Source: a virus (lineage: Duplodnaviria > Heunggongvirae > Uroviricota > Caudoviricetes). Taken from it: a stretch of DNA of 10,495 bases. How positions within the stretch are numbered: the first letter of the stretch is position 1; each line of letters opens with the position of its first letter. The DNA lies in IMG/VR virus record IMGVR_UViG_2693429700_000005, one strand, 5' to 3'. Made by a program: the position numbers. Shown piece after piece: positions 1 to 3,000 of this stretch.

Positions 1-3000
1 GGGAAGGCTGGGCCATACTCCTCCGGCAGAAGCAGAAAAAGCTTATTATGCTTCCATCGGAAACGATGATCTGGCAGCCTGAGTTCACAGATAAAACACT
101 CTCCAGGAAACCCGGGGCGGTTCATCTTGGTTCCACAAATCTCATTACACAAATATTGATTTTGATATTTTGGTATAAACCATTCATTGCAACATTTACA
201 TTTCCTTCGATAGATTCGCATAAGTGCTCCTTTCGTTGCCGGAAAAATCACCGTAATACTTATCTCGGGCTTCTTCAGCAACTAGTACCGCTAACTCCAG
301 ATCATCAAAGCATCCGAAGTGTTTACTCTTTCCATGGAATCCTAGCCTAACATTCCATTTTTTCTGTCGTTTGTGCCAAGTAACCCCTCTGCAACCTGAT
401 TTGCTATTCTTTCGGATCCTTATATTTCTTGAATTTTCTATTGGCAGGCATTCTCTTAAATTTTCTGGCCTATTGTCGGTCCTAATTCCATTAACGTGGT
501 CAATTTGACCAGCAGGCCAACGATTATGAGTTATGTAAAAAACTAAGACGTGAGTTTTATATCTACGCCCATCTATCATGATCATTGAATAACCGTTGGA
601 ATCAAAAGTTCCAGCAACACTATTTAATGCTATCCTTCCCTGAGTGGGAACTTTCCATCTAAATACCCCGGTAGATTTATCGAAACTTAGTAACTCAAAT
701 ATCCTTTTAACAGTTAAATCTTCTCTTTTACGGTTACATCGTCTTCGCGCTGGTTTAGCCATCGCCTTCTTCCTCCGTAATGGTTTTCTGAATTTGGCCA
801 CCTGAACAGAGCTCACCAAAGCTATGGATGTCGGTATTTCCACAATACCAAGATGGCGAAAATAACTGCATGATAAGCCTCAGGGAAAAGGGAAGACACT
901 ACCCCCGATAATTCAGAAACAAATCGAAATACATGAACTAAAGAAAAAATCACAACAAATAGAAATAGAAATAGAAATAGAAATAGAAATAGAAATAGAA
1001 ATAGAAATAGAAATATTAAAACAGACCACCACATTCCTGATGTCATACTCACTAAACAATTTTTCGACAACATGGTAGCTCATAGCACGTTATCGTGTAG
1101 ACACCCTCTGCTACGTATTCGGTGTTCAGTGCAATATCTACAAATACTGGAAAAATCTAAAATCGAGGCAAGTTTTTAGTGATAACTATAGTTAGACTAT
1201 ATTGACGACCTGATGTGCTGTATGTAATAATTAAAAAAAATATTTTCCATGGGATTTTTTATTTTAATGAAATGCAAAATATTTTTATCAATAGTTAGTA
1301 TTATGGAAAACCATTAATTCAGGAGGAAACTTGATTCCAAATTCAACTTCAAATAAAGGTTATGTATGCATTGACATGCAGTGTTCGTCAACCTCTGAAC
1401 CAACAGCTTCTACCTCCAGCAACCGGAGTATTAAATTAGCCGCTTCCACAAATGTATATCCGATAACAAGAAACGACTCCGAGCTCACTCTGAACGATTT
1501 TCTTGATAATAGCTCTTCTACGTCATCATTGGACTACATTAATGAATTGGGTTCTCAACTGACGTTAAATGATTTTCTTGACAACATAAAGACAAATGAG
1601 GTGGATAGAACATGTACGGATGTGGTAATTAATATCCCACAAGAGATACAAACAAATACACAGGAAAATGATTTGTTATTATCCGATAAAAATAATTCAA
1701 TATGCATTGAAATCGATGAAAGAATTACAAAAATCCTAACATGCAAGCAAAAATATCAACTGGACAGCATCATTCATGAAATTATACCAAAAGAGAATGA
1801 GAGTGCAGAAACTGTTCTCCATCTTATGAGAGTTCTGAACGATCAATATCATCAGGTATATAATCAGTCAGGATGTTTTTATAAAGCCTATATGGCCATA
1901 CACAATAAAATCGAACAGATACTTCCATATGCGTTCAGAGCCGGAGGCGGAATCAGCATTCACTTGCTCATACAGGCATTATTTTTTAATGGCGACTATA
2001 ACAAATCACCTTCACAGTCTCAACAACCATCTTTATATACATCACCTTCTCCAACAATAAATACAGAAGCATTCTTAAGTAATGTATTATCACTAGATAT
2101 AACCCAGGTACGCATACTTGGTGATTTACTATCAGCAACTTTATTTCATGCACCAACAATATTCTATCAATATCCTAAACTAATAGATGAAGTTAAGTAT
2201 TGTATAAGTAATAAAAAAATAACAGGTTCGGTTATAGCACGATTTACTCTATGTTTAACAAGTACATTACTAACCATGTCACCACTGTTAATGCTTAATG
2301 GAGCAGTTAAAACAGGTAGCATAGTAAGAACTATAGGTAGGGGAGTGAGTTATGCTGATATACCATTGGCCTTAGCTATATTAGGTGACTCATGGTATAA
2401 AGCTTATAAACATGGTTCTTCTGATAACCCAAATTCTGCTCAGAGATTTATATCGCAAGAAGCGGCCTTTAAAACCACCCAGCGGGTATTAACACAAGGA
2501 TTAAGTCTGATGTCCTCTTTATCGGGAGCAATCATGCGCTCTCTTGAGAAAGGCACACCACCACAAATGATGTCTTTATTCATCGTAAACATACTAAATC
2601 TATTATTTCATCAAAATCCATATGAAGGGGCATCAGCAAGTGCTAATGCTTTGAAAAGATCAACTTACTCCCATAATCCGGACATACTAAATACTCAGGC
2701 AATAGCTCTTTGTGTTGACCTCCAGCATACAAAAAATATAACCATGCCACTTTTCAAAACAAAAGACAGGATATCTTACGCATTCAATGGACAAAGAACA
2801 TCCCCAGAAGACCAAAAACAAATACTGAAAGAAGTTATAAACTCCTGTACCCAAGGAGAAAGAGCCATTTTAAATACATCACAATCAGAAACATGCAAAC
2901 ATAAAATCGATGAGATTTATGAAAAAAGATTCTCAGAAACAGAACTAAATACATTACCAAACGAAATGGAAAATTTCTTGATATTTTTGAACAAAACTCA

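What the first reader, a model, noticed from the sequence alone, without database searches (positions are those of the whole stretch)
196..762. Free-standing HNH-AP2 endonuclease gene beside the cargo gene
HNH-AP2 proteins are typical phage homing endonucleases. One sits directly beside the AT-rich cargo and the IS end, outside any structural-gene context. It may have promoted acquisition of the neighbouring cargo by double-strand-break repair, or be part of the same imported cassette.
Basis: partly seen in the sequence, partly recalled or inferred. Interest (0 to 1): 0.4.

Follow-up and report, generated by a model that had tools for sequence, protein, structure and literature searches.

The report
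Homing endonuclease cassette lodged in ninG
The gene is a real HNH-AP2 endonuclease of the common phage "homing" type, sitting in a 596-bp selfish cassette always inserted at one exact spot in the lambdoid recombination gene ninG, and the neighbouring cargo arrived by a separate, later insertion.

Summary
Window 196-762 (minus strand) is an intact 188-aa ORF with an I-HmuI-type HNH (HNN) nuclease domain and a C-terminal AP2 DNA-binding domain. The context is the nin region of a lambdoid, Stx1-phage-like prophage, not a random site.

Compared with lambda, the gene belongs to a 596-bp, 37% GC cassette (window 138-733) that replaces 64 bp inside ninG/rap. The endonuclease borrows ninG's own ribosome-binding site, ATG and first nine codons. 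The cassette's 3' end supplies an AT-rich substitute NinG N-terminus with its own Shine-Dalgarno.

The cassette is at least 99% identical, and always next to NinG, in 538 of 5,426 complete E. coli genomes. In 57 viral contigs it sits at the same nucleotide. 926 genomes have at least one unoccupied junction. Cassette diversity is 4-20 times lower than that of its flanks. This is the anatomy of a free-standing homing endonuclease; its activity is inferred, not shown.

The cargo island (776-3561) is a separate insertion that split ninF in a phage already carrying the cassette. The "HNH captured the cargo" and "same cassette" ideas are therefore not supported.

Verdict: an ordinary kind of element, a neat example of it, and of modest interest.

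The parts
196..762 (-). HNH(HNN)-AP2 endonuclease ORF, 188 aa (identical to WP_001108084.1)
   Evidence: ORF and start codon. Pfam HNH_3. phrog_99, E=1.4e-71. Structure model and fold matches. Profile search against PDB.
442..561 (-). HNH_3 / beta-beta-alpha-metal nuclease core (aa 68-107). D88-H89, N101 and N110 are invariant in the homologue alignment.
   Evidence: In one search the motif aligns with the DH...N...N motif of I-HmuI.
250..396 (-). AP2 DNA-binding domain (aa 123-171)
   Evidence: Below the Pfam cut-off with the single sequence. Confirmed by the profile search and by fold.
138..733 (-). 596-bp, 37% GC homing cassette that replaces 64 bp (nt 33-96) of lambda-type ninG
   Evidence: Alignment to lambda and to O111 strain 11128. 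Same borders in 57 IMG/VR loci. GC content.
734..762 (-). Captured ninG start: native ATG plus 9 codons (MAKPARRRC), now the N-terminus of the endonuclease
   Evidence: Family homologues only begin to align at about residue 10-20.
138..221 (-). Substitute ninG 5' end carried by the cassette. It spans 28 codons at 27% GC, with an AAGGAG Shine-Dalgarno at 227-232 inside the HNH ORF, and joins in frame to native ninG at GTKIALERR.
   Evidence: In the phage collection it is found only together with the HNH.
128..137 (-). Last native ninG bases before the IS. In this window ninG is cut off at about codon 31.
1..127 (+). Right end of IS1203/IS629. The same end is repeated, inverted, at 10318-10495.
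755..775 (-). 3' remnant of ninF (21 nt), carrying the Shine-Dalgarno used by the endonuclease
776..3561 (.). 2,786-bp, 34% GC cargo island that replaces the central 101 bp of ninF. It is a separate event from the HNH cassette. It contains (AAATAG)9 at 957-1010 and the 590-aa orphan ORF at 1331-3103 (+).
   Evidence: Cargo family.
3562..3610 (-). 5' remnant of ninF (49 nt), followed by ninE (3607-3789)

Best explanation
The ORF is the nuclease of a free-standing homing-endonuclease cassette that has colonised the 5' end of ninG (rap), the recombination gene of lambdoid phages.

**Shown: the anatomy.**
- A 596-bp AT-rich block replaces 64 bp of ninG, codons about 11-32.
- Its 5' border fuses the endonuclease in frame to ninG's own Shine-Dalgarno, ATG and first nine codons. 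The enzyme is therefore made from the delayed-early (pR, N-antiterminated) transcript, coupled to ninF translation.
- Its 3' end carries a strong Shine-Dalgarno and a diverged, 27% GC copy of the NinG N-terminus, with the Cys/Trp motif kept. This copy re-joins native ninG in frame, so NinG is still produced.

**Inferred: the mechanism.**
- When an occupied and an unoccupied lambdoid genome replicate in one cell, the enzyme would recognise the GC-richer native ninG 5' segment through its AP2 and N-terminal domains.
- It would then nick or cut there with its I-HmuI-like HNN site.
- Repair from the occupied allele would copy the cassette in.
- The recoded ninG segment would make occupied alleles immune to cutting.

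**In this window.** The cassette is intact, but its host gene ninG was later truncated by IS1203. A 2.8-kb cargo island was inserted independently into ninF, 13 bp upstream of the endonuclease ATG.
For: **Domains and fold.**
- HNH_3 scores above its Pfam cut-off.
- phrog_99 (HNH endonuclease) gives E=1.4e-71.
- The structure model has pLDDT 87.8. Its best PDB match is the homing endonuclease I-HmuI, followed by AP2 domains.
- The homologue profile hits I-HmuI at 2.7e-8 and the WRI1 AP2 domain at 5.3e-11.
- D88, H89, N101 and N110 are invariant, and the family boxes WP, DH, DNR, NLRE and EN are present. PMC2248197 describes these boxes for HNN-AP2 phage endonucleases.

**Family behaviour.**
- 3,059 of 50,697 phage records carry a homologue, with up to 7 copies per genome.
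- 104,774 clusters match at E<=1e-3.
- The nearest relative, at 44% identity, stands free beside endonuclease I and the exonuclease gene in a contig that looks T7-like on that gene content.

**Insertion anatomy.** It comes from direct alignment with lambda and with O111 strain 11128.

**Fixed site with polymorphic occupancy.**
- 538 of 5,426 genomes carry the gene at >=95% identity (536 at >=99%), always with NinG in the listed rows.
- 926 genomes have at least one unoccupied junction.
- All 57 IMG/VR loci share identical borders.

**Evidence of recent spread.**
- Cassette diversity is pi=0.004, against 0.016-0.08 in the adjoining DNA. The first variable site lies 5 bp past the border.
- Divergence between occupied and unoccupied ninG in the 60 bp next to the border (0.0245) equals within-class diversity.
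- The ninG remainder behind the cassette ranges from 90% to 99% identical to lambda. One occupied allele has a 100% identical unoccupied counterpart.
- The cassette occurs with different replication modules, with or without NinH, and with different Q types.
- Some genomes hold up to 3 copies.

**Other points.**
- Crude pN/pS is 0.29, and the common variants are synonymous.
- The substitute NinG N-terminus is found only with the HNH.
- The arrangement is compatible with a deposited, complete phage genome: the Stx1-converting phages AU6Stx1 and SH2026Stx1 carry it.
- No intron or other Rfam family is present.
Against: - No cleavage, nicking or homing experiment exists for this protein, and I found no paper on it.
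- Ordinary homologous recombination in the conserved nin genes could by itself shuffle a young module across backbones. That would give the same diversity pattern.
- No co-conversion tract of reduced diversity is visible beyond the borders.
- O157:H7 strains appear both among carriers and among genomes with lambda-type unoccupied junctions. If both alleles sit in one genome, conversion is not efficient in lysogens. I did not verify co-residence in a single genome.
- A few copies carry changes at invariant residues (N101S, P83T) or a frameshift. Decay therefore does occur.
- No lineage between 48% and 99% identity was found. The donor, and the way the left junction formed, remain unknown.
Confidence: 0.65

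Rival explanations
1. Passive relic. The cassette entered ninG once, by homing or by illegitimate recombination. It is now carried along and shuffled only by the general mosaic recombination of lambdoid phages. The endonuclease no longer homes, or is inactive.
For: - Flank diversity rises immediately at the borders, with no visible co-conversion tract.
- Unoccupied lambda-type junctions remain common: 926 genomes have at least one, and O157:H7 strains appear in both lists.
- Sporadic damaging variants and IS hits occur.
Against: - The ORF is intact and >=99% identical in 536 genomes, and pN/pS is about 0.29.
- All catalytic and family boxes are kept.
- The cassette is much less diverse than DNA 5-50 bp away, and it sits on ninG backgrounds differing by up to 10%. 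Without a drive, this would need very frequent recombination exactly at both borders.
Confidence: 0.2
2. The endonuclease caused, or arrived with, the neighbouring AT-rich cargo. Either a double-strand break captured the cargo, or both came in as one imported cassette.
For: - Both are AT-rich, at 37% and 34% GC against 49% for the backbone.
- The two lie 42 bp apart.
- 246 of 252 cargo-bearing genomes also have the HNH adjacent.
Against: - The HNH occurs without cargo and with intact ninF in many phages. 20 of 57 viral loci are of this type.
- The island is flanked by the two ninF remnants, so it is nested in a pre-existing ninF-HNH-ninG arrangement.
- Cassette and island have separate, precise borders.
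- Cargo homologues in Salmonella lie in a chromosomal islet without any HNH.
- The endonuclease is expected to cut alleles that lack the cassette, not its own.
Confidence: 0.04
3. Competition or defence nuclease, or a domesticated regulator. The protein mainly damages co-infecting rival phages or satellites (marker exclusion). Alternatively, its AP2 domain acts as a DNA-binding regulator, and self-propagation is not its role.
For: - Homing-endonuclease domains have been co-opted in phage-satellite conflicts, and homing-endonuclease genes mark exchange boundaries (PMC10448857).
- There is a weak PADLOC ZorE hit.
Against: - The PADLOC hit is 14 bits and covers only the HNH motif.
- The gene lies in the lytic delayed-early operon, with no promoter predicted for it.
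- The recoded host-gene segment and the single fixed site are features of a homing element.
- Exclusion and homing are not mutually exclusive.
Confidence: 0.08
4. Packaging helper. The protein is an HK97 gp74-type HNH that works with terminase in cos cleavage.
For: HNH proteins are common terminase partners in cos phages (general knowledge).
Against: - The gene is about 6.4 kb from the terminase genes, with Q and the lysis genes in between.
- Closely related phages with the same lambda-type terminase lack it.
- Its family is HNH_3 plus AP2 of the I-HmuI group, not the terminase-associated HNH type (PMC5714182).
Confidence: 0.02

Closest known systems
HNN-AP2 free-standing endonucleases of phages (Xanthomonas phages Xp10/OP1/Xop411 group I; T5, T1, RB-type and Felix O1 examples; Magnani et al. 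2004, as cited in PMC2248197 and PMC10448857)
   Same: - Same two-domain architecture.
- Same conserved boxes: H-x-L, WP, DH, DNR, NLRE, EN, and no Cys dyads.
- Free-standing, AT-rich relative to the host genome, and presence/absence polymorphic.

   Different: - In the Xanthomonas phages the genes are scattered, with no conserved flanks (PMC2248197). Here one clone occupies one exact site in a temperate lambdoid lineage.
- That clone is fused to the start of its host gene.
I-HmuI (Bacillus phage SPO1, PDB 1u3e), His-Me finger group 2
   Same: - Best structural and profile match for the N-terminal and HNH part.
- The same DH...N...N catalytic motif.
(PMC5714182)
   Different: - I-HmuI is encoded in a group I intron. 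Here no intron is detected.
- Only about 18% identity.
- From memory: I-HmuI has a helix-turn-helix C-terminal domain where this protein has AP2, and it is a nicking enzyme.
T4-type free-standing homing endonucleases (Seg and Mob proteins, e.g. SegG, MobE)
   Same: - A selfish gene wedged between or into conserved genes.
- The target lies in the allele that lacks it.
- Flanking host sequence from the donor is co-converted, and sequence differences at the target protect the carrier.
(principle cited in PMC10448857; anatomy here)
   Different: - The Seg proteins belong to a different catalytic family (GIY-YIG).
- Those cases concern virulent phages.
- Activity is demonstrated for them but not here.
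Homing-endonuclease insertions that interrupt coding regions without an intron or intein (the ShiLan HNH element in actinophage methylase genes, PMC11855218; interrupted genes noted in PMC10448857; from memory also split nrdA and gp43 in T4-related phages)
   Same: The endonuclease sits inside a host ORF, and host function is preserved by the way the insert is built.
   Different: - Here the host gene is neither split into two working halves nor read through.
- Only its first nine codons are taken over by the endonuclease, and the cassette brings a replacement N-terminus with its own ribosome-binding site.
Other occupants of the lambdoid ninF-ninG slot (NUMOD4-HNH, 130-aa hypothetical protein, Ant/KilAC antirepressors)
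   Same: They occupy the same hotspot in the nin region.
   Different: They lie between genes and leave the native ninG 5' end untouched, or they accompany RusA instead of NinG. Only the HNH-AP2 cassette is embedded in ninG.

Membership tests
HNH(HNN)-AP2 free-standing homing endonucleases (His-Me finger group 2) | Beta-beta-alpha-metal nuclease core of the HNH_3/I-HmuI type, with the catalytic D-H...N...N intact | tested here: met
   - Pfam HNH_3: 42.4 bits against a cut-off of 24.8.
- D88, H89, N101 and N110 are invariant.
- Profile hit to I-HmuI at 2.7e-8, with the motif aligned.
- I-HmuI is the top fold match.
HNH(HNN)-AP2 free-standing homing endonucleases (His-Me finger group 2) | C-terminal AP2 DNA-binding domain | tested here: met
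   - Single-sequence Pfam is below its cut-off (21.7 against 33.3 bits).
- The profile hits WRI1 (5.3e-11), TEM1 (3.9e-7), ERF096 and AtERF1.
- The model shows a three-strand sheet plus helix that superposes on AtERF1 at 1.3 A.
HNH(HNN)-AP2 free-standing homing endonucleases (His-Me finger group 2) | Free-standing: not inside an intron or intein | tested here: met
   - No Rfam family, and so no group I or II intron, anywhere in the window.
- The ORF has its own stop codon, and ninG restarts from a separate Shine-Dalgarno and ATG.
HNH(HNN)-AP2 free-standing homing endonucleases (His-Me finger group 2) | Presence/absence polymorphism at a defined site in otherwise homologous genomes | tested here: met
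   - 538 genomes are occupied, and 926 have at least one unoccupied junction.
- Borders are identical in 57 loci.
- The cassette is decoupled from its flanking haplotypes.
HNH(HNN)-AP2 free-standing homing endonucleases (His-Me finger group 2) | Site-specific cleavage or nicking of the allele lacking the gene, followed by gene conversion (homing) | not testable with these tools
   This needs biochemistry and phage crosses. No published test was found.
Intron-encoded HNH endonucleases (I-HmuI type) | Location within a self-splicing group I intron | tested here: not met
   No intron model matches. The flanks are coding sequence of ninF and ninG.
Terminase-associated HNH (HK97 gp74 type) | Adjacent to the terminase/portal genes and conserved with them | tested here: not met
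   - The gene is about 6.4 kb from the terminase genes, beyond Q and the lysis genes.
- It is absent from lambda and from many relatives with the same packaging genes.
Anti-phage defence nucleases (PADLOC models) | Significant match to a defence-system component, with partner genes nearby | tested here: not met
   The only hit is a 14-bit, E=0.007 match to ZorE over 24 residues of the HNH motif. No partner genes are present.

The most novel reading that the evidence does not exclude
The cassette is an active gene drive in lambdoid (including Stx-converting) phages, and its co-conversion tracts carry the adjacent 2.8-kb cargo island with it. A homing endonuclease would then be disseminating a moron, possibly a secreted-effector-like gene, among prophages of pathogenic E. 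coli. The island begins 42 bp from the cassette border. 98% of cargo copies are linked to the cassette. The ninE-island-cassette block sits on at least two different left-hand backbones and several right-hand ones.
Probability: 0.12. Interest if true: 0.55.

Novelty: new member of a known kind. Interest (0 to 1): 0.3.

Why it matters
- It supplies a clean, testable temperate-phage example of a homing element, with a defined candidate target: 64 bp at the 5' end of lambda ninG. Phage lambda genetics is a convenient system in which to test it.
- It shows how such an element can live inside a gene at little apparent cost. It takes over the host gene's translation start and brings a recoded replacement N-terminus, which probably also gives self-immunity.
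- It corrects the picture of the neighbouring cargo. The cargo is an independent insertion into ninF, not something the endonuclease brought in.
- If the element is active, it would be one identifiable driver of mosaic exchange in the nin-Q region, just upstream of the Shiga-toxin genes in Stx1 phages.

Tried and rejected
- **Literature.** The first search was wasted, because "ninG" matched words such as Ningbo at word start. The whole-word search found no paper on an HNH in ninG. The Magnani et al. 2004 paper is not held, so it is cited only through PMC10448857 and PMC2248197.
- **Libraries.** NCBIfam gave nothing for either protein. PADLOC gave only noise.
- **Donor lineage.** Nothing between 48% and 99% identity turned up in the phage records, the 5.8-billion protein set or the 1.84-billion representative set. 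The substitute NinG N-terminus has no closer relative than ordinary NinG, at 63-67%.
- **Co-conversion test.** The unoccupied-ninG sample from IMG/VR was the 80 hits most similar to lambda. It is therefore biased, and I used it only for dxy and nearest-neighbour comparisons, not for absolute diversity (searches failed, 67).
- **Cargo.** No Pfam, NCBIfam or PADLOC hit. It matches only phrog_9230, of unknown function. The AlphaFold model had pLDDT 38, so no fold search was run on it. No 19-residue window reached a Kyte-Doolittle hydropathy of 1.6.
- **Island junctions.** No target-site duplication or inverted repeats at the island borders.
- **Not done.** I could not verify that one and the same genome holds both an occupied and a lambda-type unoccupied ninG. 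I could not find the source genome of the window; the best match covers 87%.
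Full report
**1. What is at 196-762**

The minus strand carries an intact ORF, with its stop codon at 196-198 and its ATG at 760-762, encoding 188 aa. The mechanical ORF continues to a GTG at 843. Three things fix the start at 762: the upstream GAGGAAGAAG Shine-Dalgarno, the homology described in section 3, and the RefSeq product WP_001108084.1 (567 nt).

- Pfam finds HNH_3 at E=5.5e-11 (42.4 bits, cut-off 24.8). It finds AP2 only below its cut-off (21.7 against 33.3 bits).
- The AP2 call is secured by other means. A profile of 15 homologues searched against PDB sequences hits the AP2 domains of WRI1 (5.3e-11), TEM1 (3.9e-7), ERF096 and AtERF1. It also hits the homing endonuclease I-HmuI (2.7e-8), with the DH...N...N motif aligned.
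- An AlphaFold model (pLDDT 87.8) has a three-strand sheet plus helix at residues 127-173. Foldseek ranks I-HmuI first, followed by AP2 domains; AtERF1 superposes at 1.3 A.
- PHROGs places the protein in phrog_99, "HNH endonuclease", at 1.4e-71.
- The residues D88, H89, N101 and N110, and the boxes WP, DH, DNR, NLRE and EN, are those described for phage HNN-AP2 endonucleases (PMC2248197). This type belongs to His-Me finger group 2, together with I-HmuI (PMC5714182).

**2. Where it sits**

The window is the early region of a lambdoid prophage:

| Feature | Coordinates |
|---|---|
| cI | 8281-8931 |
| cro | 8015-8200 |
| cII | within 7613-7993 |
| O, with iterons | 6642-7580 |
| P | 5944-6645 |
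| NinB | 4310-4858 |
| Dam methylase | 3786-4313 |
| NinE | 3607-3789 |

- Two copies of the same end of IS1203/IS629, in inverted orientation, bracket this region at 1-127 and 10318-10495.
- In related genomes without the left IS, the order is NinE, cargo (opposite strand), HNH, NinG, phosphatase, Q, lysis, terminase.
- The same order occurs in the Stx1-converting phage AU6Stx1, with Q and stx1 just downstream.
- The gene is therefore in the nin region of the delayed-early operon.

**3. Anatomy of the insertion**

I aligned an HNH-bearing, cargo-free prophage (O111:H- strain 11128: NinE-NinF-HNH-NinG) with lambda (NinE-NinF-NinG). A 596-bp block replaces 64 bp inside lambda ninG, nt 33-96.

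- **Left border.** The endonuclease ORF begins with ninG's own ATG and nine codons. Lambda NinG starts M-MAKPARRRC-KNDEC...; the HNH starts MAKPARRRC-NRKRED.... Family homologues only begin to align at about residue 10-20. The native N-terminus of the endonuclease has therefore been exchanged for that of NinG, together with ninG's Shine-Dalgarno and its overlap with the ninF stop codon.
- **Right border.** Inside the last 26 nt of the endonuclease ORF, an AAGGAG Shine-Dalgarno and an ATG open a substitute NinG N-terminus, MRIYRRKCKCCNEWFIPKYQNQYWCNEIC. This joins native NinG in frame at GTKIALERR.
- **The substitute segment.** It has 27% GC, against 52% for the segment it replaces, and matches it at only about half of its aligned nucleotides. 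It keeps the Cys/Trp pattern. It has the length of the short, 933W-type ninG class. In 50,697 phage records it occurs only together with this HNH.
- **Window coordinates.** The cassette is 138-733, the captured start is 734-762, and the substitute ninG 5' end is 138-221.
- **Later damage.** IS1203 then cut ninG 8-11 bp beyond the junction.

**4. Distribution**

- The gene is present at >=95% identity in 538 of 5,426 complete E. coli genomes (536 at >=99%). There are 565 copies, up to 3 per genome, all chromosomal. In every listed row it lies with NinG.
- The unoccupied lambda-type ninF-ninG junction is found in at least one copy in 926 genomes.
- In 57 IMG/VR prophage contigs, the cassette has the same borders and is 595-596 bp long.
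- Its nucleotide diversity is 0.004. The 43 bp upstream have 0.02, and ninG downstream has 0.016 rising to 0.08. The first variable site is 5 bp past the border.
- Behind the cassette, the remainder of ninG is anywhere from 90% to 99% identical to lambda. NinH is present or absent. The Q and replication modules differ.
- One occupied allele has a 519-nt ninG tail identical to an unoccupied one. Divergence between occupied and unoccupied alleles in the first 60 bp equals within-class diversity.
- The cassette is thus decoupled from its flanks down to a few base pairs. Repeated homing would produce this pattern, but very frequent flanking recombination would too.
- Within the ORF there are 11 synonymous and 12 non-synonymous variants. 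That gives a crude pN/pS of 0.29, and the common variants are synonymous.
- No protein between 48% and 99% identity exists in any collection searched. The family as a whole is very large: 3,059 phage records, often with several copies per genome, and 104,774 clusters.
- The nearest relative (44% identity) stands free next to endonuclease I and the exonuclease gene in a contig that looks T7-like on that gene content.

**5. The cargo is a separate event**

- Against the cargo-free O111 phage, window 124-775 and 3562-5660 are collinear. Window 776-3561 (2,786 bp, 34% GC) replaces the central 101 bp of ninF.
- Both ninF remnants are still present, at 755-775 and 3562-3610.
- The island was therefore inserted into a phage that already had ninF-HNH-ninG.
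- The cargo ORF occurs in 252 genomes, and 246 of them have the HNH adjacent. Roughly half of the HNH carriers lack the full island. They have intact ninF or, as in EDL933, a remnant cut by IS30.
- Cargo homologues in Salmonella (48-51% identity) form a single-gene islet between cdd and sanA, with no HNH.
- The ninF-ninG slot also accepts a NUMOD4-HNH, a 130-aa hypothetical protein and antirepressors, all with an untouched native ninG 5' end or with RusA in place of NinG.
- Nothing links the endonuclease to the capture of the cargo. The reverse, cargo hitch-hiking on cassette conversion, is possible but untested.

**6. Mechanism**

*Shown:*
- the domain architecture and an intact catalytic motif;
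- in-frame capture of the ninG start;
- a substitute ninG N-terminus with its own ribosome-binding site;
- one fixed site with polymorphic occupancy;
- low cassette diversity on diverse backgrounds;
- purifying selection;
- no intron;
- no promoter predicted for the gene.

*Inferred:*
- expression from the N-antiterminated pR transcript;
- recognition and nicking or cutting of the native, GC-richer ninG 5' segment in genomes that lack the cassette (AP2 domains are reported to favour GC-rich DNA, PMC10448857);
- copying of the cassette by recombinational repair;
- immunity of carriers through the recoded segment.

I put 0.65 on this reading. The main rival (0.2) is a once-mobile, now passive module moved only by general lambdoid recombination. 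The packaging-helper, defence and cargo-capture readings are weak, for the reasons given in their entries.

**7. Comparison and verdict**

- It meets every sequence-testable criterion of the HNN-AP2 free-standing homing-endonuclease family. The functional criterion, cleavage and homing, cannot be tested here.
- It works like the T4 Seg/Mob elements, with co-converted and protective flanking sequence.
- It resembles endonuclease insertions inside coding regions, such as the ShiLan element (PMC11855218). It differs in taking only the host gene's start and supplying a replacement N-terminus.
- As an aside, the host gene, ninG/rap, itself encodes a His-Me finger nuclease (PMC5714182).
- The gene is already annotated "HNH endonuclease" in hundreds of genomes, and the family is well known.
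- What appears to be undescribed, as far as a full-text search of the held library shows, is the insertion anatomy in ninG.

I rate it a new member of a known kind, of modest interest.

Noticed in passing
window 1-127 and 10318-10495: The same end of IS1203/IS629 occurs at both window ends in inverted orientation and brackets the whole 10.2-kb early region. The left copy truncates ninG. The segment may have been inverted or mobilised, but the outer flanks lie outside the window.
   Followed up: partly
window 124-230; L005 4958-5001; ERL04-3476 (H4, P0003): At least three independent IS1203 insertions fall within about 600 bp of the cassette in different strains. One is at window 127/128. One is at the HNH/ninG overlap in strain PK8241. 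One is apparently inside the HNH ORF in strain ERL04-3476; that is inferred from the H4 annotation and the P0003 fragment only, and the locus was not inspected.
   Followed up: partly
window 957-1010: A hexanucleotide microsatellite, (AAATAG)9, lies between the HNH and the cargo, about 320 bp upstream of the cargo start. Its copy number ranges from 3 to 13 among 41 related sequences. It is therefore hypervariable, and its effect on cargo expression is unknown.
   Followed up: partly
window 1331-3103 (+): The cargo is a 590-aa orphan (phrog_9230, with no Pfam, NCBIfam or PADLOC hit).
- It has a Ser/Thr-rich, probably disordered N-terminus with two LTLNDFLD repeats, followed by an all-helical remainder. 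The AlphaFold model fails (pLDDT 38).
- Homologues occur in E. albertii, in many Salmonella lineages (a cdd-sanA single-gene islet) and in Providencia alcalifaciens.
- This looks like a horizontally mobile, possibly secreted-effector-type gene. That reading is untested.
   Followed up: partly
L067 2574-3710; L068 1574-1966; L069 470-2001: The ninF-ninG junction is a general insertion slot. It also holds a NUMOD4-type HNH endonuclease (with RusA in place of NinG), a 130-aa hypothetical protein, or Ant/KilAC antirepressors.
   Followed up: partly
window 128-221; alignment A3: Natural ninG 5' ends fall into two classes. The lambda type reads CKNDECREW. A type 6 nt shorter, CKICKEW, is seen in an stx2-linked prophage (L069) and in strain 6817 (L074). 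The cassette's substitute N-terminus belongs to the short class but is strongly AT-shifted. In this window it also carries a W-to-L change (TGG to TTG) relative to other copies.
   Followed up: yes
window 7110-7233: Iteron-like direct repeats (CCCTCGTTTTGAGGGAT and variants) lie inside the O gene. This is the expected lambdoid replication origin.
   Followed up: no
L158 (Stx1 phage AU6Stx1) 3671-9504: The cargo-HNH-ninG unit lies directly upstream of ninH and Q, and about 1.7 kb upstream of stx1A, in a deposited complete Stx1-converting phage genome. The window probably derives from a Stx1-type prophage or a close relative.
   Followed up: partly
L003 (EDL933) 5001-6643: In O157:H7 EDL933 the cassette is followed by only the first about 250 bp of the cargo island, including the repeat, and then by a truncated IS30 and unrelated genes. 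The cargo has been deleted from a prophage remnant.
   Followed up: partly
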